From Nannocystales bacterium (GTDB lineage: Bacteria > Myxococcota_A > Polyangia > Nannocystales > Nannocystaceae), in contig JBOEGF010000018.1 of NCBI GenBank assembly GCA_050633305.1, forward strand, positions 672,001 through 736,000: a stretch of 64,000 bases of DNA, in the 5' to 3' direction. The translations under genes and the position numbers were made by a program. Shown here piece after piece: positions 8,203 to 17,520 of the stretch (the first letter of the stretch is position 1; every line of letters starts with the position of its first letter). A model generated the notes under the pieces. It ran no database searches, was not told the origin of the DNA, and saw only the letters and a list, made by a program, of their open reading frames with translations.

Positions 8203-10695
8203 ATGCCTTACGCTTCGTTTCGCGTTCTTGCTGTGTCTGTGTTGCCGGCGGTTGTGTTGTTGGGTTGCGGTGATGACACGACCGCGACCCCGACGGAAGG
8301 GTCCACGGGCACCCCTGAGACGACCACAGACGATGGGACCACGACGGGCGGGGGGACCACGATGGGGTCCACGACGTCCGTCGATCCGGATGGGTCCGGA
8401 TCCGGCTCGACGAGCGCCGACGGGAGCACGACGTCGGGGGGCGAGAGCAGCAGCTCGAGTACCGGGACACCCAACCTCGACCCTGAGGCTGAGGACGACT
8501 TCTATCTGACCGACACCGCCGCAGCTCCACTCGCTGTGGATGCGGCGGCGGGCGTGCTCGGGAACGACGCCGACCCGGAGGGGGAGGACCTCGCGGTCTC
8601 GGACTTCGATGCGGTGAGCGAGGCCGGTGGAACCGTCGAGGTCCAGCCGGACGGTGCCTTCGTCTACACCCCGCCAGATCCATTTTGGGGAGAGGACGCG
8701 TTCACCTACACCACCGCGGACCCCCTGGGCGGCACCGCTCAGGCACGGGTCCGCGTTGCCGTGGCCCCGACCTCGGAGTCGCTCGCGGAGGTCGTCGCTG
8801 CCACGGCTGGAGTCCGGGTGAGCGGACCGAGCTCGGGCGATCGGTTCGGTGTCTCTGTCGCCGGTGGCGCCGATGTGAACGGCGACGGCTTTGCCGACAC
8901 GGTTTATGGAGCTGATGATGCGCTCGCCGACGGTCGCGGCGCGGCCTACGTCGTGTTCGGCGGTCCCGACGCAGCAGCGATCGACGGTGCCGATGTCGAG
9001 GCGGAGACTGGCGGCTTCGCCATCTTGGGACCCGCGGCGGCGTCATCGACCGGGTTTTCGGTCGCCATGCTCGGGGATGTCTCCGGGGATGGCCTCGGCG
9101 ACATCGCGGTCGCCGTGACGGATGGCGGGGGTCCCGGAGGGGTCTACGTCGTGTTCGGGTCCGCTGCACCGGGGACCGTCGATCTCGCCGCGCTCGGCGG
9201 CGATGGATTCGAGATCACCGGGGGAGACTCCTTTGGCCAATCCGTGGCGGCGGCCGGAGATGTCAACGACGACGGGTTGCAGGACATCGTGGTGGGCGAC
9301 CCTGACGCCGGCGGTGGCAGCGGGGCGGCCGTGGTTGTGTTTGGGAAGTCCGGCACGGAGACGGTCGACGGCGCAGCTCCGGGCGCGGAGGGGTTTAGGG
9401 TCGATGGAACGGTTGCCGGAGGCTCTCTTGGGTTTGCGGTTGCGGGCGCCGGTGACGTCAACGTTGACGGTTTCGACGATGTGGTGATCGGTGCGTCGGA
9501 GTCTGCGGTCGTCGGGCGGGTACTCGTCGTGTTCGGAAAACCGGATACCGCCGCTGTGTCGGAGGACGACCTCGCCGTTGCGGCGGATGGCGGCATCAGC
9601 ATCACCGGAGGCGCAGCGTTCGACCTCGTGGGCCGTTCGGTGGCGGGGGCGGGTGACGTCAACGGAGATGGGCGGCCTGACATCATCTTCGGAGCGCCGG
9701 GCATCGATGTCGGAGATGACAACGGTGCGGGTCGTGTCTTCGTCCTGTTCGGTGGCGTGGACATCGAGAGCACGACACTGGATGCCCTCGCGATGGGCGT
9801 CGGGGGCTTCGCGCTCGACGGCGCGAACCAGTTCGATTTTGCCGGCTGGTCGGTCGCGGGGGCCGGCGACGTCAACCGCGATGGGTTCGCAGACATCATC
9901 GTCGGCGCACAAGGAGCGGACACCCCGGTGAGCAACGCCGGCCGGGCCTATGTTCTATACGGTGCGTCCGATCTCGCGGGCGGAAGTCTTGCGGACTTTC
10001 CGGTCGGGGATGGTGGGTTTCATCTCGACGGGGAGGCGTTTGAGCACTTCGCGGGCGGTGCCGTTCACGGGTCTTCTGACCGCAACGGCGACGGGTTCGA
10101 CGACCTCGCGCTAGGCTTGCCCGAAGCCGAGTCCGACGCGGGGTTGGGCTATGTCTGCTTCGGCGGCAACTACGTCGGTGTCGACCGGCTTGGCTTCACG
10201 GCCGAGGCCGACATCGTGGTGGGCAGTGAGGCCGCTGAGACGCTGGTCGGCGGCCGGGGGGACGACGAACTGCAGTCCTTCGGGGGGGCCGATGTCCTGA
10301 GCGGCGGGGCAGGGGACGACGTCGTCAGCATCATCGACGGAGGCTTCTTCCGCATCGACGGTGGAAGTGGAACGGACACGCTTCGACTCGAGGGCAGCGG
10401 GTTCTCGCTCGATCTCGCGAACTTCTTCGACGCTGCGATCAACGGTATCGAGGTCATCGACCTGACCGGTGAGGGCGACAACGGGCTGTTCCTGGGCACC
10501 CATGAGCTGCTCGCACTCTCACCCACCAGCAACACGCTGAGGGTCCTGGGGGATGCCGGGGACCAACTCGTGGCTGACCTCGCCGGGGCGGGCTTCGTGG
10601 ACGAGGGGTCGGACGGAATGGTCACGACCTACTCGAACGGCGTTGCATCCATTGTTGTCGATGATGCGGTCGATGCGTTTGTATCCCTGGACTGA
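8203..10695 (+). CDS. Lipoprotein adhesin: Ig/cadherin-like (Big_9) domain + FG-GAP/integrin-alpha propeller + RTX-like Ca-binding repeats
   Basis: LLGC lipobox, GVLGNDADPEG..DGAFVYTP..FTYT, multiple GDVNGDGxxDxxxGA repeats and GGxGDD nonapeptides. Confidence 0.85.
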   Translation: MPYASFRVLAVSVLPAVVLLGCGDDTTATPTEGSTGTPETTTDDGTTTGGGTTMGSTTSVDPDGSGSGSTSADGSTTSGGESSSSSTGTPNLDPEAEDDFYLTDTAAAPLAVDAAAGVLGNDADPEGEDLAVSDFDAVSEAGGTVEVQPDGAFVYTPPDPFWGEDAFTYTTADPLGGTAQARVRVAVAPTSESLAEVVAATAGVRVSGPSSGDRFGVSVAGGADVNGDGFADTVYGADDALADGRGAAYVVFGGPDAAAIDGADVEAETGGFAILGPAAASSTGFSVAMLGDVSGDGLGDIAVAVTDGGGPGGVYVVFGSAAPGTVDLAALGGDGFEITGGDSFGQSVAAAGDVNDDGLQDIVVGDPDAGGGSGAAVVVFGKSGTETVDGAAPGAEGFRVDGTVAGGSLGFAVAGAGDVNVDGFDDVVIGASESAVVGRVLVVFGKPDTAAVSEDDLAVAADGGISITGGAAFDLVGRSVAGAGDVNGDGRPDIIFGAPGIDVGDDNGAGRVFVLFGGVDIESTTLDALAMGVGGFALDGANQFDFAGWSVAGAGDVNRDGFADIIVGAQGADTPVSNAGRAYVLYGASDLAGGSLADFPVGDGGFHLDGEAFEHFAGGAVHGSSDRNGDGFDDLALGLPEAESDAGLGYVCFGGNYVGVDRLGFTAEADIVVGSEAAETLVGGRGDDELQSFGGADVLSGGAGDDVVSIIDGGFFRIDGGSGTDTLRLEGSGFSLDLANFFDAAINGIEVIDLTGEGDNGLFLGTHELLALSPTSNTLRVLGDAGDQLVADLAGAGFVDEGSDGMVTTYSNGVASIVVDDAVDAFVSLD

Positions 10696-10747: not shown

Positions 10748-11911
10748 ATGGACATCGCTAGCATTGGACCGCTCGACGTCGAACCCGAGCAGGTTCGCCG
10801 AGCGTTCGAGGCCGTTGCCGACCGACTCGAGGGCCGCAAACTCGGCTTTCTCTACCTTCCGCACGACGTCGACGCGGGGCCGCTGTTGAAGGCCGCGTGC
10901 GACGGTCTCGGGGACCGAGTGGTGGGCGCCACGACGGGCGGGGCGGCCTTTACCGAGCGTGGCTTCACGCGTGACGGTGTCGTCGGAGGGGTGATCGGCG
11001 GAAGCGGATTCGACTATTCGGTGGCCGTGGCCCACGACCTCTCCCCGCGCAAGACACAACGCCTCGAAGACGCGTGTGGGGAGCTGGTCGTCGCTGCGCG
11101 GAAGTCGGTGAGCCGTGTTCCCGCGTTGTTGGCCCTTGGCGACGGTCGCTCCATCGATGGCGTTGCTTTAACCGAGACGCTCAGCCGCAGCCTCCCACCG
11201 CACTGGCGTATCTTCGGCGGGACCGCAGGAGACTCCCTCGTCTTCGAGGACCGATCTCGGGTCTTCGTCGACGGCGAGGTGCTCGACGGGGCGGCGGTCC
11301 TCGTGGGCTTGTTCTCGGACTCGAACTGCGGCGTGGCGGTTGGGCATGGTTGGTCAGCCGTGCAGGGGGCCAAGGAACTCGCGGTGAGTGAGATCGACGG
11401 GCACAACCTGATCGGGCTCGATGGGCGCCCCGCGGCGGAGGTGTTCGGGGAGGAGCTACACCGCTTGGGGTTGGTGCCGGATCCCGCAGTGCTCGTCCCC
11501 GACGCGTCGCGGTATCAATTCGGGGCGCGCTCGCGGTTCGGTGAACTCACGGTTCGCGCGGCACTCGAGTTCCCCGGGGACGGCAGCATCCGTCTCGCCG
11601 GAGGGGTCACCTTGGGGACGGTGCTGCAAGTCGTCGCGACCACGCCGGAGCGCCTGGCCGAATCTGCAAGCGAGGTCGGTCGCCGAGCGGTGGCCGAGTT
11701 CCCCGACGGAAGGACCCCTCGGGGCGGGCTGGTGTTCGATTGTGCCGGGCGCTTGGCCTATTTGGAGGACGCCTACCCAAGTCAGCTGCGTGGCTTCTTT
11801 GCCGGCCACGCGTTTCCTGTCGTCGGCGTGACCTCATACGGTGAGATCGCGAAGTTCGGTGGGAGCCTCGAGGGATTCCACAATGCTACCGCCGTGATGG
11901 CGGCATGGTGA
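10748..11911 (+). CDS. FIST-domain (FIST_N/FIST_C) signal-transduction protein
   Basis: VVGATTGG, FGGTAGD, GHGW, LDGRPA, FDCAGR, GVTSYGEI and FHNAT motifs. Confidence 0.85.
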   Translation: MDIASIGPLDVEPEQVRRAFEAVADRLEGRKLGFLYLPHDVDAGPLLKAACDGLGDRVVGATTGGAAFTERGFTRDGVVGGVIGGSGFDYSVAVAHDLSPRKTQRLEDACGELVVAARKSVSRVPALLALGDGRSIDGVALTETLSRSLPPHWRIFGGTAGDSLVFEDRSRVFVDGEVLDGAAVLVGLFSDSNCGVAVGHGWSAVQGAKELAVSEIDGHNLIGLDGRPAAEVFGEELHRLGLVPDPAVLVPDASRYQFGARSRFGELTVRAALEFPGDGSIRLAGGVTLGTVLQVVATTPERLAESASEVGRRAVAEFPDGRTPRGGLVFDCAGRLAYLEDAYPSQLRGFFAGHAFPVVGVTSYGEIAKFGGSLEGFHNATAVMAAW

Positions 11912-11915
11912 TCGA

Positions 11916-13709
11916 TTGAAGGCGCTGCTCAAGGTCGGCTACGGGTGCAACGAGCACTGCACCTTCTGCCACACGCAGGACGTCCGACACATCGACGGTG
12001 CATCCGAGGAGGTCGAGGCCAAGATCGATCGTGCGAAGGCGCTTGGCCATTCGATGGTGGTGCTCTCGGGGGGAGAATCGACGATCCGCCCCGAGTTCTT
12101 CTCTTGGGCCCGCCGCATCGCGAGTCTGGACATGGATCTGGGGTTGGTCACCAACGGTCTGGTGCTCGCCTATCCGGACGTCATCGAGCGGTTGGTCAGC
12201 CTCCGTCTGCGCTACGTCTACATGTCCTTGCACGGCGGGGAGGCGCGCATCCACAACCGCCTGGTTCGGCGAGACTCCTTCGAGGCGGCTGCGTCGGCGT
12301 TGAACAACCTCTCGGGCCGCGGGCTCGACCTGACCGCCAATTGTGTCGTCACGCGGCAGAACGTGGAGCACCTCCGGGGCTTGGTCGACCACGTCGCGCG
12401 GCTGCCCGATGTGCGCTTGAAGTTCTCGTGGGTGGAACCAAAGGGCGGGGCCGCTCATCTCCTCGAGACGTTGGTCCCCCCACTCGAAACCGCTGCTGCT
12501 GCCGTGTCGGAGGCGCTCCGTCGATGGGACGAGACGACCGGACGGCCCTCCCAGGCTGTTCACGGGGGATTTCCGTTGTGCTCGTTGCCTGGCTTCGAGT
12601 CGCGCTACGACGACCTACGCACACATGACTACTGGACCATGAGCGAGATCGGCGAGCCCGATCTGTTCCCGATCGACGATCGAAACAAGTCGAAACCCGC
12701 GCCGTGCGAGCGCTGCAATCTGCGCGGAGGCTGCCCGGGACTGTTCCGACTGTACGGCGAACGCTTTGGTCACGACATGCTCCGCCCGCGAGAGGATGGG
12801 GTCCGGAGTAACAGCATCGACTTCGTCTACGAACACATGCAGACCGATGGGTACGCCGAGGGCGACGCCTGCCCGGTTTGGGCCGCGAGCGCGCGCCCCT
12901 ACGATCGGGACCGTCACGTCTTCGTGCGGCACGGCGCGAAGGTCGGCCGTTATCGCGCGCTATCCCGGGATTTCGACGATGACGAACTCGAGCGCATGAA
13001 GTTCGACACGGCGCAGCTGTACCTCGACGCGTCCCGGAAGTCCGCACCGAACGACTTCGCCCGCGACCTCGTCAAGCTCGACCGTAGCGAGCTGTGTCGT
13101 GAGTGCCCGGGCCACGACACCTGCGCGGGGATGTTCGAGCCGCGCTTCGAGGATGTCTTTGGTCGCGATGACGCGGTCGTCCGAGCACACCTCGGGTCGC
13201 TGCGCGGCGACGTGCTCGACGTGGGCTGCGGCGAGATGCCCTACGCCGACACCCTGAGCACGGGAATCGAGTCCGGTGCGCTGCGATATCTCGGTGTCGA
13301 CCCCGACGCTGAGGCCTTGGCGGCCGTTGCGGCCCGTCTGCCGCCGGTTGAGCTCCACGTCGGCACCTTGGCCAGCATCGACCCGCAGCGAACATTCGAC
13401 CACGTCTTGGTGCTGCGGAGCTGGAACCACCTCCCCGATCCGCACGGCTTCGCGGAGCGCGTTGCGACGATGCTCCGCCCCGGTGGCTCCCTGGTGGTCG
13501 TGGACAACGTCGCCTTCGCCCTGTTGAGGACTCCGGCGCAGACACGGGTGGCCCAGGGGTCGGCCGCCCGCTGGGAGCATTGCCGAAACGATGACGACCA
13601 GCAGGCTCACAGCGTCCTCGAGAGTGCCGGGTTGACGCTGCAGCGAAGGCTGCCGATCCGCCCCTCGGGAAGCAACCAGTGGATGCTCCTGTACACTCGC
13701 CCTGCATGA
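11916..13709 (+). CDS. Radical SAM enzyme (HxsC-like) fused to class I SAM-dependent methyltransferase
   Basis: CNEHCTFC (CxxxCxxC), SGGE, TNG, PLC, CERCNLRGGCPG, a second CRECPGHDTCAG cluster, then VLDVGCG..GVDPD..FDHV..LRPGG. Confidence 0.9.
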   Translation: MKALLKVGYGCNEHCTFCHTQDVRHIDGASEEVEAKIDRAKALGHSMVVLSGGESTIRPEFFSWARRIASLDMDLGLVTNGLVLAYPDVIERLVSLRLRYVYMSLHGGEARIHNRLVRRDSFEAAASALNNLSGRGLDLTANCVVTRQNVEHLRGLVDHVARLPDVRLKFSWVEPKGGAAHLLETLVPPLETAAAAVSEALRRWDETTGRPSQAVHGGFPLCSLPGFESRYDDLRTHDYWTMSEIGEPDLFPIDDRNKSKPAPCERCNLRGGCPGLFRLYGERFGHDMLRPREDGVRSNSIDFVYEHMQTDGYAEGDACPVWAASARPYDRDRHVFVRHGAKVGRYRALSRDFDDDELERMKFDTAQLYLDASRKSAPNDFARDLVKLDRSELCRECPGHDTCAGMFEPRFEDVFGRDDAVVRAHLGSLRGDVLDVGCGEMPYADTLSTGIESGALRYLGVDPDAEALAAVAARLPPVELHVGTLASIDPQRTFDHVLVLRSWNHLPDPHGFAERVATMLRPGGSLVVVDNVAFALLRTPAQTRVAQGSAARWEHCRNDDDQQAHSVLESAGLTLQRRLPIRPSGSNQWMLLYTRPA

Positions 13710-14170
13710 GTGCTGCGCCTGGTTTTCCCGACGACGCTGCGGAGATCGATGCGGACGACGGTCGCGTGTCGCTGGTTGTCGATGCCGAGCTGTACCCGCG
13801 TGATGCCGTGTATGCGGCGGTCATGCCGATGCTCGCGACGGCCTTCGTCATGCTCGACCAGTCACCGCAGGGGAGGACCCGCATCGAGCTGCGTCCCCGC
13901 GAAGCCTCCAACCCCGGCGCGTTGCGAGCGATGCTCGGGGGGCTCGCGAACGAGCTGTTGGTCGCGACGACCCGATCGGAGATCGCAAAACGACGGGGAG
14001 GCCTGTTGGAAGCTGTCACGCGCCGCGCCGTCTCGGGCGCGATGGGTGCACCGTCGCTCGACGACCTCGAGGGCTTTGATCTGGATGGGGATGCGTTTGA
14101 AGATCCTCTGGGCATCGCCGATTCGTGGGACCGCAGCCACGGCACGCCACAAGGAAAGGACGACGCATGA
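13706..14170 (+). CDS. hxsD: His-Xaa-Ser system protein HxsD-like
   Basis: VDAELYPRDAVYAA..ANELL..R..I..EDPLGIA..W pattern. ATGA overlap with the radical SAM gene; located upstream of HxS-repeat precursors. Confidence 0.75.
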   Translation: MSAAPGFPDDAAEIDADDGRVSLVVDAELYPRDAVYAAVMPMLATAFVMLDQSPQGRTRIELRPREASNPGALRAMLGGLANELLVATTRSEIAKRRGGLLEAVTRRAVSGAMGAPSLDDLEGFDLDGDAFEDPLGIADSWDRSHGTPQGKDDA

Positions 14171-14406
14171 GCACGCTTCGATTCCACAAGGAGCTGTATT
14201 CGGGGATGGCTGTCGATGCCGCGATGAAGCGCTTCGAGCGGTTCGCGACCTTCGAGGTCGCCGATGACGCCAGCCACTGGACCGTGGTGGTGAAGGCGGA
14301 ACGCCCGGAGCAGCAGACGCAGCTGGAGCGGGAGCTGGGTAACTTCGCGTTGGGACTCACGATCGAGCGCGGTGGTCCGGACGTCGCCGAAGACGCCTCA
14401 GACTGA
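14167..14406 (+). CDS. Small HxsD-like protein
   Basis: FHKELYSGMAVDAA..ELGNFAL resembles a short HxsD repeat. ATGA overlap with the previous gene. Confidence 0.7.
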   Translation: MSTLRFHKELYSGMAVDAAMKRFERFATFEVADDASHWTVVVKAERPEQQTQLERELGNFALGLTIERGGPDVAEDASD

Positions 14407-14452
14407 TATGCTGGGCGGGCGCGACGGTTGAGTGGCGCATTGGAGTGCGAGG

Positions 14453-14776
14453 ATGGACGACGACCGCAAGACAGATGATGGCGACGCTTTGCCGAGCTTT
14501 CGCGCGGCGGCGTCATCCGTGCTGGGCACCGACGCCCGTACGATCTCCGCCCGCGCTCGCTCCGCCGCCGATGAGCCCCCAACTGCCCCGGGAGCTGTGA
14601 TCGGGGGGGAAACGGCGGCCGGTGGTGGCCCTTCCCACTGCAGCCACGGGTCGCACGGCAGCCACGGGTCGCACGGTAGTCACGGATCGCACGGCAGCCA
14701 CGGGTCGCACGGCAGCCACGGGTCGCACGGCAGCCACGGGTCGCACGGTAGCCACGGGTCGCACGGCTCCTGGTAA
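14453..14776 (+). CDS. His-Xaa-Ser repeat precursor peptide 1 (HxsA-like), core SHC(SHG)14SW
   Basis: Acidic leader, conserved LPS..VLG..AR.ISARAR..ADEPP block, and 14 in-frame SHG triplets with synonymous variation. Confidence 0.9.
   Translation: MDDDRKTDDGDALPSFRAAASSVLGTDARTISARARSAADEPPTAPGAVIGGETAAGGGPSHCSHGSHGSHGSHGSHGSHGSHGSHGSHGSHGSHGSHGSHGSHGSW
14642..14767 (+). repeat. 14 x 9-nt coding tandem repeat (18-nt higher-order period)
   Basis: agccacggg/tcgcacggc alternation read directly. Confidence 0.95.
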
Positions 14777-14886
14777 GAGGGGGCTGTAGGCCCCAGTGCG
14801 AGGCTCAAAAACGCGGTCCATCCAGCCCACGGGTCGCCCGGATCAAGCCGGCAAGCCTGATATCATCCACGAAGGGGGCGCTTCCG

Positions 14887-15189
14887 GTGAATGATCGAAA
14901 CGAAGACCAGACAGCGGACGAGACGAACGACGACACGATCGAGTTGCCGTCGTATCAAGCCTCGCCGTCTGCGGTCCTCGGCGAGAACGCCCGCGAGATT
15001 TCCGCGCGTGCCCGCGCACAGGCCGACGAGCCGCCGGCGGGCAACGACACGATCAACGGGGGCGGAACAATGTTGGCGCCCAGCCACTGTAGTCACGGCT
15101 CGCACGGCAGTCACGGCTCGCACGGCAGCCATGGCTCGCACGGAAGTCACGGTTCACACGGAAGTCACGGAAGTCACGGGAGCTGGTAG
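14887..15189 (+). CDS. His-Xaa-Ser repeat precursor peptide 2 (HxsA-like), core SHC(SHG)10SW
   Basis: Paralogue of precursor 1 with the same leader block and 10 SHG triplets. GTG start after a purine-rich stretch. Confidence 0.9.
   Translation: MNDRNEDQTADETNDDTIELPSYQASPSAVLGENAREISARARAQADEPPAGNDTINGGGTMLAPSHCSHGSHGSHGSHGSHGSHGSHGSHGSHGSHGSW
15091..15180 (+). repeat. 10 x 9-nt coding tandem repeat
   Basis: agtcacggc/tcgcacggc-type units read directly. Confidence 0.95.
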
Positions 15190-15243
15190 CCGAATGAGCC
15201 GCCCGATCGAAATCCGGAGGTGGGTGTTCGAGCCCAGCGCTGC

Positions 15244-17520
15244 ATGAGCGACGAATCGCCCAGCAACGAGGGGGCTCCGACCCCGAGCGAAGAGACCGGG
15301 ACAGGTCCCGCCCCGACCTCCGAGAGCGAAGCCGTGCGGCGTCGGCTCACGATGTTCGTGCAGCCGCGCACAAAGATGGAGAGCGCAAAGGGTCGCCGAC
15401 GGGTGCTCTACGTGGGCACCAACCCTCGTGAGTCGGCGAACCTGCAGGAGCTGCTCAACGATGCGGTCGACCCTGGGTTCGGTGTCGAGCATGCGCCCGA
15501 CGAGACGATCGCTGTCGAGATGCTGAATCGCTCGGACAAAGCGTTTCAAGTGGTTGTCGTCGAGCTCGATCGCGACCGACGAATGTGGACTCGGCTGGTC
15601 CGCGACCGACGACTGCCCAGCATTCCCCTGATCGTTGTCGACCACCGGGGCACGCCTGAGGAGCGCTCTCTTCGTCGATCTCAGCTCCTCAAGGAAGGCG
15701 CGGCGGGGTACGTCCGCCGTAGCGAGCTCTCCGGAGCCATGCTCGAGGCGCTTGTGTTCGCTGCGCTCGAGCGCGCACAGATGCGTCAGGCCCTCAGCGA
15801 GGTCCAAGAACGATTCGCCCTGGCGGTCCGCGGAGCCAACGACGGGGTGTGGGAGTGGATTCTCGAAACCGGTGAGATGCACTTCAGCCGGCGATGGCGA
15901 GAGTTGCTCGGCTACGGTGTCGACGACCTCTCCAACTCGGTCAACGAGTGGTTTGACCGCGTCCACGCCGAGGACATCGCGGCCCTCAAAGAGGACATCG
16001 ACGCCCACCTCAATGGGGACAGCCCGTACCACGAGAGTGAGCATCGGATTCGGGCCAGCGACGGAACCTACCGCTGGGTGATCTCGCGCGCCGTGGCCCA
16101 GCGTCAAAACGGACGTCCGGTTCGGATGGCCGGGTCGATCACCGACACGTCCGACTACCGTCTGCGCGAGGAAAAGATCCGAGAGGAGTCGCGTCAGGAT
16201 GCATTGACCGGACTTCCCCGTCGGGAGCCGTTCATGGAACAGCTCGCGCGGGCGGTTCGACTCGCGGACACCGACGAGACGTACTGCTTCACCGCCTTGA
16301 TGGTCGATGTTGACCGCTTCCGGTGGCTCGCGGACTCCATCGGACACCAAGCGGCGGACGGCATGCTCGCCATTCTCGCCCGCCGCCTGGTCGCCTGCGT
16401 CCGCCCTGGGGACACCGTCTCCCGCTTTGGTGGGGACAAGTTCGCCGTGCTGCTGGAGAACCTTCGCGATGTCGACACGGCGACAGACATCGCCAACCGG
16501 ATTCGCCTGTCCGTGCACGAGCCGTTCGACGTCGAAGGACAGACGGTCTACACCACCGTCTCGATCGGGCTGACGACCTCGGACCGAGCGTACGCCGATG
16601 TCGACGAGGTCATCAGCGATGTCGCCGCTGCCGCGAACAAGGCCAAGGAGCGCGGACAGGATCGCCACGAGGTGTTCGATACGAAGATGCGCATCGACGC
16701 ATTGACGACGCTTCGCCTCGAAGTTGCGTTGCGTCAGGCGGTGGAGCGCGAGGAGTTCGAGCTGCACTACCAGCCGATCGTCGATCTCAAGTCCGGCGCG
16801 CTGATGGGCTTCGAAGCGCTCACCCGCTGGCGTCACCCACGTCGTGGCATCGTCTCACCGGCCGAGTTCATCCCCGTGGCCGAGCAGACTGGGCTCATCA
16901 TTCCGATTGGGCGGTGGGCGATTCGTGTCGCGCTCGAACAACTCGGTCGTTGGCAGGCGACGCTCCCGAGCAGCAACGGTGGCAAGCCACTGTCGATGAG
17001 CGTCAACCTCTCGGGCCGACAGATCGCGGACCCGCGGTTGCTCGACGAGATTCGTACCGCGATGACCGAGAACAACATCGCCGAGGACACGTTCCGCCTC
17101 GAGCTGACGGAGTCCGTTCTCATGGACAACTCGGAGTCCGTCTCGCGGACGCTGGCGACCTTGCGGTCCAACGGCGTGCGGATCTGGGTCGACGACTTTG
17201 GTACCGGGTACTCGTCGTTGAGCTACTTGCATCGGTTCCAGTTCGATGGGCTCAAGATCGACAAGAGCTTCGTCGACGCGTTGGACGGGTCGCCACAGGG
17301 CGCGGCGATGATTCGAACGATCCTCAGCCTGGCGTCGAACCTCGGCGTTGAGGTGATCGCGGAGGGGATCGAGTACACGGTCCAGGCCGACCAACTCCTC
17401 GAGCTCGGATGTGTGCGAGGCCAGGGCTACTTGTTCAGCCGGCCGATCGCTGCAGCGAAGGTTCAGGGATACGTCGCCGGAGGCTCAACCGAGCCCGCGG
17501 GTCCGCCTGTCGCATCGTAG
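15244..17520 (+). CDS. Pseudo-REC + PAS + GGDEF(GGDKF) + EAL protein, probable c-di-GMP phosphodiesterase
   Basis: GANDGVWEW..RVHAED PAS, DALTGLP, RFGGDKF, FEALTRW, LELTES and DDFGTGYSSLSYL. Confidence 0.92.
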   Translation: MSDESPSNEGAPTPSEETGTGPAPTSESEAVRRRLTMFVQPRTKMESAKGRRRVLYVGTNPRESANLQELLNDAVDPGFGVEHAPDETIAVEMLNRSDKAFQVVVVELDRDRRMWTRLVRDRRLPSIPLIVVDHRGTPEERSLRRSQLLKEGAAGYVRRSELSGAMLEALVFAALERAQMRQALSEVQERFALAVRGANDGVWEWILETGEMHFSRRWRELLGYGVDDLSNSVNEWFDRVHAEDIAALKEDIDAHLNGDSPYHESEHRIRASDGTYRWVISRAVAQRQNGRPVRMAGSITDTSDYRLREEKIREESRQDALTGLPRREPFMEQLARAVRLADTDETYCFTALMVDVDRFRWLADSIGHQAADGMLAILARRLVACVRPGDTVSRFGGDKFAVLLENLRDVDTATDIANRIRLSVHEPFDVEGQTVYTTVSIGLTTSDRAYADVDEVISDVAAAANKAKERGQDRHEVFDTKMRIDALTTLRLEVALRQAVEREEFELHYQPIVDLKSGALMGFEALTRWRHPRRGIVSPAEFIPVAEQTGLIIPIGRWAIRVALEQLGRWQATLPSSNGGKPLSMSVNLSGRQIADPRLLDEIRTAMTENNIAEDTFRLELTESVLMDNSESVSRTLATLRSNGVRIWVDDFGTGYSSLSYLHRFQFDGLKIDKSFVDALDGSPQGAAMIRTILSLASNLGVEVIAEGIEYTVQADQLLELGCVRGQGYLFSRPIAAAKVQGYVAGGSTEPAGPPVAS

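What the first reader, a model, noticed from the sequence alone, without database searches (positions are those of the whole stretch)
14453..15189. Two precursor paralogues define a conserved leader, an invariant SHC entry and an SW terminus
Seen: LPSFRAAASSVLGTDARTISARARSAADEPP versus LPSYQASPSAVLGENAREISARARAQADEPP, flanked by divergent acidic N-termini and Gly-rich linkers. Both cores start P-S-H-C and end G-S-W-stop, while repeat number differs (14 vs 10). Inference: the 31-aa block is the maturase recognition sequence. The single Cys and terminal Trp are under selection as modification or cyclisation sites, whereas array length is tolerant.
Basis: partly seen in the sequence, partly recalled or inferred. 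Interest (0 to 1): 0.75.

Follow-up and report, generated by a model that had tools for sequence, protein, structure and literature searches.

The report
Twin HxsA4 His-Gly-Ser repeat precursors
Two neighbouring small genes encode members of an already catalogued family of histidine-glycine-serine repeat peptides (HxsA4); a short motif at the start of their leader likely docks them on a radical-SAM enzyme encoded elsewhere in the genome, and their single cysteine is not obligatory, because whole related genera lack it.

Summary
Both pass the curated cut-off of NCBIfam NF038313 (HxsA4), whose model already runs from this leader to the Trp. This scan found the family before on other DNA.

The leader is under selection, but only its first 12 positions (hydrophobic-Pro-x-hydrophobic-x7-Leu) are kept across the phylum. 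'SHC' is not invariant (5 of 52 family precursors). The core reads HCS-(HGS)n-W, and three genera of the same family have Ala or Gly in place of Cys in their only array. No enzyme tested tracks the Cys. Terminal Trp is near-invariant in this phylum. Array length clusters at 9-11 in the family.

HxsD models as a non-RRE fold. HxsB (contig C14) has an RRE-like N-terminus, and a predicted complex weakly favours HxsB as the partner (0.57 versus 0.09). Chemistry and function are untested. The closest studied relative is the HXS anti-phage system, whose effector domains are missing here.

The parts
14453..14776 (+). HxsA4 precursor, paralogue A (107 aa): acidic N-terminus, leader block, Gly-rich linker, core HCS-(HGS)14-W
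   Evidence: NF038313 99.6 bits, cut-off 55; translation
14489..14581 (+). 31-residue leader block of A; positions 1-12 (14489-14524) hold the phylum-wide motif hydrophobic-Pro-x-hydrophobic-x7-Leu
14636..14776 (+). Core of A: 15 His-x-Ser triplets (first has Cys), Trp, stop
14887..15189 (+). HxsA4 precursor, paralogue B (100 aa from GTG): the copy kept at this locus in all 7 genomes of the genus; core HCS-(HGS)10-W
   Evidence: NF038313 64.3 bits, cut-off 55
14944..15036 (+). 31-residue leader block of B; motif at 14944-14979
15085..15189 (+). Core of B: 11 His-x-Ser triplets (first has Cys), Trp, stop
14167..14406 (+). HxsD-like protein (79 aa)
   Evidence: NF038315 70.5 bits, cut-off 41; homologous to HxsD by profile comparison, probability 95%, E 3.7e-8
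13679..14170 (+). HxsD-family protein (about 163 aa; start uncertain); predicted beta-alpha-beta-beta-alpha fold with a long helix and a conserved acidic tail; not an RRE
   Evidence: TIGR03976 19.7 bits, below cut-off 50; alignment; model; fold search
11916..13709 (+). HxsC-like radical SAM domain fused to a class I methyltransferase domain (597 aa)
   Evidence: Pfam Radical_SAM and Methyltransf_11; best NCBIfam hits HxsC4 and HxsC, below cut-off; found in 34 of 34 family genomes chosen for having a precursor and 0 of 7 chosen as controls without one

Best explanation
The two genes are HxsA4 His-Xaa-Ser repeat precursors, duplicated early in this genus; the first 12 residues of their leader likely dock on the RRE-like N-terminal domain of HxsB, and radical-SAM enzymes would then modify the repeated His-x-Ser triplets, with the Cys an optional site. 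Shown: family membership, selection on the leader, the two-tier leader conservation, loss of Cys in whole genera, near-invariant Trp, an HxsB gene on contig C14, and HxsB directly upstream of the precursor in many relatives. Inferred: the leader motif pairs with the HxsB RRE; HxsB and the HxsC-like enzymes (at least six more in this genome), helped by the HxsD proteins, install His-Ser cross-links and methyl groups along the array; the leader is removed; Trp is a separately recognised end. The product would be a rigid His-rich peptide, most likely acting in phage defence at the envelope (about 0.4) or in metal binding (about 0.25).
For: Membership. The motif [LIVFM]-P-x-[FLIVYW]-x7-L is in 45 of 52 family, 85 of 104 phylum and 26 of 43 collection-wide precursors, against 0.012 of shuffled family leaders. 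Outside the family (97 sequences), matches to either window copy average 0.39 over block positions 1-12, 0.15 over 13-20, 0.25 over 21-28 and 0.08 over 29-31. HxsB scores 570.6 bits on TIGR03978, cut-off 370. Its model begins with three strands then three helices, the order that defines an RRE (PMC12710340, passages). It aligns to CteB 5WGG from model residue 6 to 465 (Z 35.0, rmsd 3.7, 407 aligned), and CteB binds its leader on that RRE (PMC6231123, passages). Predicted complex of HxsB, HxsD, HxsD-like and leader plus four triplets: weak support, score 0.57, best of 3 controls 0.09, that control being HxsB replaced. The mark was reached by 116 of 157 solved and 2 of 215 mismatched pairs, but at 0.60 or under by only 18 solved pairs and both mismatches; runs agree in at least 51% of contacts; partner pLDDT at least 50; a like complex (CteB-CteA) is solved, so the pass may be memory. 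Order rSAM-MTase, HxsD, HxsD-like, HxsB, precursor in G448, G450, G451, G456, G408 and G150. HxsB ends within 700 nt upstream in 22 of 46 family and 31 of 79 phylum loci (short flanks make these lower bounds). In E. coli HxsA the Ser, His and Ser of SHRSS are essential and carry +8 Da (PMC13128918 section 9). A His-Ala-Ser motif forms a His-Ser cyclophane in minviopeptin (PMC12912966, passages).
Against: No chemistry was tested. The complex gave no contacts, so it cannot say whether the leader or the repeats bind, or whether the RRE is the site; one of three runs scored 0.21. Pfam finds no PqqD/RRE family in any of 43 HxsB sequences. SuiB binds its leader outside its RRE. In E. coli the stable complex found was HxsC-HxsD, with no stable HxsB-HxsC association. 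In this genome HxsB is on another contig. Positions 13-28 are also conserved within the family (Arg17, Ala23, Ala27 in 43 of 43), so a second binding site is likely. No protein here reaches the HxsC or HxsC4 cut-offs. The +8 Da change is not a plain -2 Da cross-link.
Confidence: 0.55

Rival explanations
1. One reading: the whole 31-residue block is the recognition sequence for the adjacent HxsD proteins or rSAM-methyltransferase, and Cys and Trp are obligatory modification or cyclisation sites (for example a Cys-to-Trp macrocycle).
For: Block under purifying selection. Cys in 96 of 104 phylum precursors (set chosen by an HMM that favours Cys). Trp in 98 of 99. HxsD, HxsD-like and the rSAM-methyltransferase stay beside the precursors here while HxsB moved.
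Against: Cys is absent from the only HGS array of g267, g269 and g257 genomes; pattern counts equal one array per genome (G439 excepted), including the single-contig G433. These genomes keep Trp and the rSAM-methyltransferase. The HxsD model is a small alpha/beta fold, best Z 7.6 with no RRE listed. With HxsD and HxsD-like kept and HxsB replaced, the complex score fell to 0.09.
Confidence: 0.12
2. The leader is mainly a non-canonical export or targeting signal, as for E. coli HxsA, and the matured peptide is an envelope-located anti-phage effector; enzyme recognition rests on the repeats.
For: HxsA export depends on HxsB, HxsC and HxsD and on its N-terminus (PMC13128918 section 8). A sister leader type in the same NCBIfam family has a hydrophobic stretch after an FLxSEEGK motif (23 of 27 with an 11-residue hydropathy of at least 1.6, against 6 of 124 others).
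Against: The window's leaders have no hydrophobic segment (maxima 0.82 and 0.39). Nothing follows the repeats, so there is no peptidoglycan-binding domain. The repeats carry no Arg or Lys (translation), unlike the basic repeats proposed to bind DNA in HxsA.
Confidence: 0.2
3. The product is a His-rich metal-binding peptide (Cu, Ni or Zn store or chaperone); Cys is an optional extra ligand and array length sets capacity.
For: 11 and 15 evenly spaced His. Length varies from 7 to 50 His in the phylum set. Cys is dispensable. A copper-binding RiPP with His cross-links exists (PMC10206099, search listing only).
Against: No metal-transport or metal-resistance gene among the 13 neighbouring proteins scanned. 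The studied relative is a defence system. A kit of seven or more radical-SAM proteins is hard to explain for simple chelation.
Confidence: 0.13

Closest known systems
HxsA4, NCBIfam NF038313 (with HxsD-like NF038315, HxsB TIGR03978, HxsC4 NF038332)
   Same: Both ORFs pass the cut-off. The model aligns from the first Leu of the leader block to the terminal Trp (profile 2-93 and 1-93 of 93). HxsD-like and HxsB pass their cut-offs. The family passes cut-off in 125 of 401 phylum genomes.
   Different: Tandem paralogues with two stable leader subtypes. Operon split so that HxsB and a second HxsD lie on another contig. No protein reaches the HxsC4 cut-off of 500 (best 113 bits).
HXS anti-phage system HxsD-HxsB-HxsC-HxsA (Li et al. 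2026, PMC13128918; abstract, sections 8-11 and a term search read)
   Same: His-x-Ser repeats in the substrate, an HxsB orthologue, HxsC-like rSAM enzymes and HxsD-family proteins.
   Different: HxsA has a signal peptide, five basic repeats and a peptidoglycan-binding domain, and 99.7% of systems are in Pseudomonadota. Here there are 11-15 Gly repeats ending in Trp, no following domain, no hydrophobic signal, two kinds of HxsD and many more rSAM proteins. The main text has no occurrence of Myxococc-, HxsA4, leader, RRE or tryptophan.
Triceptides such as minviopeptin (PMC12912966; passages read)
   Same: Aromatic-x-x three-residue motifs; a His-Ala-Ser motif is cross-linked His-to-Ser by an rSAM enzyme.
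   Different: HxsB scores 47-51 bits on the cyclophane-maturase models YhhB, AmcB and GrrM/OscB, far below cut-offs of 310-445. Homopolymeric core and multi-enzyme kit.
CteB-CteA, an RRE-rSAM-SPASM thioether maturase (PDB 5WGG; PMC6231123 passages)
   Same: Closest solved RiPP maturase to HxsB by sequence (E 2.6e-35) and full-length fold.
   Different: CteA is Cys-rich. The HxsA4 core has at most one Cys, which is dispensable.

Membership tests
HxsA4 (NF038313) | Score at or above the curated cut-off of 55 bits | tested here: met
   99.6 and 64.3 bits
HxsA4 (NF038313) | Small protein ending in a His-x-Ser array and Trp | tested here: met
HxsA4 (NF038313) | HxsB maturase and HxsD-like protein in the genome | tested here: met
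   HxsB 570.6 bits against 370; HxsD-like 70.5 against 41
HxsA4 (NF038313) | Partner rSAM of family HxsC4 (NF038332, cut-off 500) | tested here: not met
   13 genome matches, none over cut-off; best whole-protein score 113 bits; genome 92% complete. This concerns the partner enzyme, not the precursor.
Canonical HXS anti-phage system | HxsA with signal peptide and peptidoglycan-binding domain (TIGR03979) | tested here: not met
   No TIGR03979 or Pfam domain hit for either ORF; leader hydropathy maxima 0.82 and 0.39
Canonical HXS anti-phage system | Four-gene order HxsD-HxsB-HxsC-HxsA with HxsC and HxsD over their cut-offs | tested here: not met
   HxsC best 112.8 bits against 267.9; HxsD 19.7 and 32.4 against 50; genes on two contigs
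Canonical HXS anti-phage system | Blocks phage DNA entry; +8 Da modification of an HxS repeat | not testable with these tools
   Needs phage challenge and mass spectrometry
RRE-dependent RiPP precursor | Cognate enzyme carries a three-strand, three-helix RRE | tested here: met
   HxsB model elements E8-12, E15-19, E25-28, H30-38, H46-53, H63-73; aligned to CteB from residue 6. By predicted structure only; no Pfam PqqD hit.
RRE-dependent RiPP precursor | Leader motif binds the RRE cleft | tested here: inconclusive
   Weak pass, 0.57 against best control 0.09, no contacts given
Triceptides | Aromatic-x-x motifs in the core | tested here: met
   11 and 15 His-x-Ser triplets
Triceptides | Maturase belongs to a cyclophane-forming rSAM family | tested here: not met
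   HxsB 47-51 bits against cut-offs 310-445
Sacti/ranthipeptides (Cys thioether) | Conserved core Cys donors and a thioether-maturase family member | tested here: not met
   One Cys, absent in three genera; HxsB 124 bits on PapB against 340 and 102 on SCIFF maturase against 425

The most novel reading that the evidence does not exclude
The motif hydrophobic-Pro-x-hydrophobic-x7-Leu is an unmapped RRE recognition sequence, shared from myxobacteria to Omnitrophota, that lets HxsB recruit a His-Gly-Ser polymer in trans into a scattered assembly line of seven or more radical-SAM, B12 and methyltransferase enzymes. The line builds a poly-cross-linked, Trp-capped peptide of a new RiPP class. The tandem pair here, with two leader subtypes each under selection, is a natural experiment on how leader and length steer that line.
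Probability: 0.3. Interest if true: 0.62.

Novelty: new member of a known kind. Interest (0 to 1): 0.33.

Why it matters
The family is catalogued and common in this phylum (over cut-off in 125 of 401 genomes), and this scan has met it repeatedly, so the pair itself is not a surprise. Its value is practical. The comparison cuts the proposed 31-residue recognition sequence down to about four testable positions, points to HxsB's N-terminal domain as the probable partner, and removes Cys as a required site. That sets up the first biochemical test on a widespread multi-enzyme radical-SAM pathway whose only studied relative blocks phage DNA entry by chemistry that is still unexplained.

Tried and rejected
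1. A Cys-dedicated enzyme. Six rSAM proteins of this genome were searched across relatives of known precursor type. The window enzyme, C14:82107 and C18:615952 occur with or without Cys. C14:48256 is patchy and unrelated to Cys. HxsB, the B12 fusion and C14:73617 occur in Cys-less genomes. The tandem double rSAM at C18:604109-605998 first looked linked (15 of 15 Cys-bearing against 2 of 12 Cys-less family genomes). The link failed in 80 handles, 61 of them new: full-score hits in Cys-less G441, G411, G452, G454, G472, G469, G473 and G474, and none in Cys-bearing G420, G424, G125, G240, G275, G487, G491 and G496 (only 16 candidates scored per genome, several genomes incomplete, some handles duplicate others). 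The SPASM protein at C18:606810 showed 13 of 15 against 1 of 12, but is present in Cys-less G231; it was not tested further.
2. One HxsD copy per leader subtype. G402, G403 and G404 have two HxsD copies but only the B precursor genome-wide.
3. HxsD as an RRE. The model has a different topology and no RRE chain is among the 50 rows shown; this is inconclusive as a fold search.
4. Expression. No RNA holder was listed; this is no evidence either way.
5. No promoter-like or terminator-like site in 13600-15400.
6. The ESM Atlas could not read the HxsB N-terminus. The original paper on these repeats, recalled as Haft and Basu 2011, was not held under the id I tried and was not read.
7. Literature: six searches listed no study of HxsA4 or its leader. 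The full list of 13 RRE motifs in PMC12710340 is in a figure I could not see; its main text and one supplement held as text do not mention Hxs. Supplements of PMC13128918 were not read and may bear on leader conservation.
Rows dropped before counting: 43 of 211 unique arrays (wrong-frame or unrelated proteins, truncated leaders, assembly gaps). Among them are likely true precursors: L199 (Trp not followed by a stop), L258 (no Trp), L193 (frameshifted), and L205, L254, L276, L277 (gaps). One search used only 148 precursors that end in Trp and have an LP-like start, so its Pro2 and Trp values are by construction. One search's pattern required Trp-stop (27 of 30 genomes matched).

Full report
1. 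Observation. ORF A runs 14453-14776 (107 aa) and ORF B 14887-15189 (100 aa from GTG). The 31-residue blocks at 14489-14581 and 14944-15036 share 21 residues; 13 of these use different codons, and third-position identity is 13 of 31 against 22 and 25 at positions 1 and 2. Both cores begin P-S-H-C, hold 14 and 10 SHG units and end Ser-Trp-stop. They are the only His-x-Ser arrays in the genome. Read in register, the cores are HCS-(HGS)14-W and HCS-(HGS)10-W: the Cys is the middle residue of the first triplet and the last Ser belongs to the last triplet.

2. Identity. Both ORFs exceed the cut-off of NCBIfam NF038313, HxsA4 (99.6 and 64.3 bits against 55). It passes cut-off in 125 of 401 genomes sampled from the phylum. 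Upstream lie an HxsD-like gene (NF038315, over cut-off), a weaker HxsD homologue and an HxsC-like rSAM fused to a methyltransferase. HxsB (570.6 bits against 370) is on contig C14 with a second HxsD, and at least six further HxsC-like rSAM proteins are scattered over C14, C18 and C12. In G448, G450, G451, G456, G408 and G150 the order is rSAM-methyltransferase, HxsD, HxsD-like, HxsB, precursor, so this genus has split an older operon. A record titled Nannocystis exedens carries the same precursor as genus g267 of the window's family, which places the family in the Nannocystaceae.

3. Sets used to test conservation. (a) Own family, found by a DNA pattern for His-Gly-Ser that does not depend on leader, Cys or Trp (61 of 72 genomes match). 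Loci came from the first 30 matches and, whose pattern required Trp-stop. (b) Phylum hits of the HMM: 29 loci and 80 regions fetched; this set leans toward the consensus. (c) A pattern scan of the genome collection, which stopped at 120 loci. Of 211 unique arrays, 43 were dropped (listed under Tried and rejected). Kin are not independent, so counts are descriptive.

4. Leader. Selection is clear: within the genus pN/pS is 0.07 among A copies, 0.19 among B copies and 0.35 between them (uncorrected proportions, 8 sequences). Conservation has two tiers. The motif [LIVFM]-P-x-[FLIVYW]-x7-L (block positions 1-12) is in 45 of 52 family, 85 of 104 phylum and 26 of 43 collection precursors, against 1.2% of shuffled family leaders. 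Positions 13-28 are kept within the family (Arg17, Ala23 and Ala27 in 43 of 43) but not beyond it (0.15-0.25 matches), and the closing Glu-Pro-Pro is genus-specific (0.28 in the family, 0.08 outside). The 31-residue boundary therefore reflects the shared ancestry of two paralogues as much as a functional unit.

5. Cys. S-H-C occurs in 5 of 52, 4 of 104 and 0 of 43 precursors; the residue before the first His is usually Gln, Gly, Thr or Glu. Cys is common (38 of 52, 96 of 104, 15 of 43) but is replaced by Ala in g267, by Gly in g269 and g257, and by Met or Val elsewhere. In those three genera the pattern counts equal a single array per genome (G439 excepted), including the one-contig G433; a Cys-bearing precursor with non-HGS repeats is not excluded. 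These genomes keep the window's rSAM-methyltransferase. Some genomes carry one paralogue with Cys and one without (G407, G442, G445). A search for an enzyme that tracks the Cys failed. Cys is probably selected in most lineages but is not needed for the pathway.

6. Trp and length. Complete cores end in Trp in 17 of 17 family and 98 of 99 phylum sequences (70 SW, 28 QW). In the collection set 26 of 38 end in Trp, 6 in GGWC, 4 in Tyr and 2 otherwise; the named non-Trp records are Elusimicrobia, a Saccharibacterium and one unclassified bacterium. An aromatic end is thus strongly kept; the preceding Ser is not. Length ranges from 7 to 50 His in the phylum set but clusters: 41 of 58 family arrays have 9-11 triplets, all six complete B copies of the genus have 11, and the phylum mode is 16.

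7. Partner of the leader. HxsD models as beta-alpha-beta-beta-alpha plus a long helix (pLDDT 83.5) with only generic matches (best Z 7.6), and HxsD-like is a short homologue. HxsB models with three strands and three helices at its N-terminus (pLDDT 90.8) and aligns over its length to CteB, including CteB's RRE (Z 35.0, rmsd 3.7, 407 residues; PMC6231123 passages). A four-chain prediction gave weak support: 0.57 against a best control of 0.09, which was the run with HxsB replaced. At this score a pass is more often wrong than right unless the guess was likely beforehand (18 of 157 solved pairs and both false passes lie at 0.60 or under). Runs agreed in at least 51% of contacts, partner pLDDT was at least 50, no contacts were given, and a like complex is solved. 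I count it as a small push on a guess that the RRE fold and gene order already made likely.

8. Mechanism and function. Most likely the leader motif docks on HxsB, the rSAM enzymes modify the His-x-Ser triplets, the leader is removed, and Trp marks the end; all of this is inferred. The basis is the E. coli HXS work, where Ser, His and Ser of the last repeat are essential and carry +8 Da (PMC13128918 section 9), and the His-Ser cyclophane of minviopeptin (PMC12912966 passages). The methyltransferase and B12 domains suggest methylation as well. Function is open. Phage defence is the leading guess from the relative, but the signal peptide, peptidoglycan-binding domain and basic residues of HxsA are absent here; metal binding is the main rival.

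9. Paralogues. A and B coexist in G000, G401 and G405; A was not found in G402, G403, G404 or G406. Two HxsD copies occur where only B is present, so the leader subtypes do not pair one-to-one with HxsD copies.

10. Verdict. The earlier claim that the enzyme kit is present or absent as a whole holds for three enzymes tested and not for three others. Six literature searches listed no study of HxsA4; most subscription papers are outside that library. Novelty: new member of a known kind. Interest 0.33.

Noticed in passing
G000:C14:59129-63611 (L050, L051, L063): HxsB lies downstream of a second HxsD copy and an 840-codon ORF fusing a B12-binding rSAM to an HxsC4-like rSAM. HxsD is duplicated in 4 of 5 genus relatives searched, whereas the relatives mapped show one copy beside HxsB.
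   Followed up: partly
window 14453-14776; L184, L185, L187-L190: Paralogue A is present in 3 of 7 genomes of the genus (G000, G401, G405) and not found in G402, G403, G404 or G406 (72-92% complete), including the close relative G404. It is old, under strong selection where kept, yet dispensable.
   Followed up: yes
L233, L235, L241, L248, L249, L091 and others: A sister leader type has FLxSEEGK, then a word such as ITRRQ, ITRKQ or ITRGQ and a hydrophobic stretch, resembling a degenerate export signal (the likeness to twin-arginine signals is recalled, not tested). Similar leaders occur in Elusimicrobia, Patescibacteria and Omnitrophota records, where cores often end in Tyr or GGWC.
   Followed up: partly
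window 13679-14170 (alignment A2): HxsD proteins end in an acidic, poorly structured tail with a strongly conserved D-P-L-x-I-x-x-x-W motif, a candidate docking motif for the rSAM enzymes.
   Followed up: no
   Followed up: partly
G000:C18:615096-615584; L338:1028-2089 and 8263-9372: Two kit rSAM proteins of relatives have no full orthologue in this genome: one gives only distant hits, the other only a 173-residue partial match through a relative's copy. The assembly is 92% complete.
   Followed up: partly
window 15220-17520 and 10748-11911: A PAS-GGDEF-EAL protein follows the precursors (seen in 6 of 7 genus loci; the seventh ends at its contig edge), and a FIST/NosP-like protein precedes the rSAM gene. 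No link to the system was tested.
   Followed up: no
L174, L222, L225, L228, L094, L262: Very long arrays occur (32-64 triplets), and the phylum set peaks at 16 His (27 of 99) while the family peaks at 11 triplets (23 of 58).
   Followed up: partly
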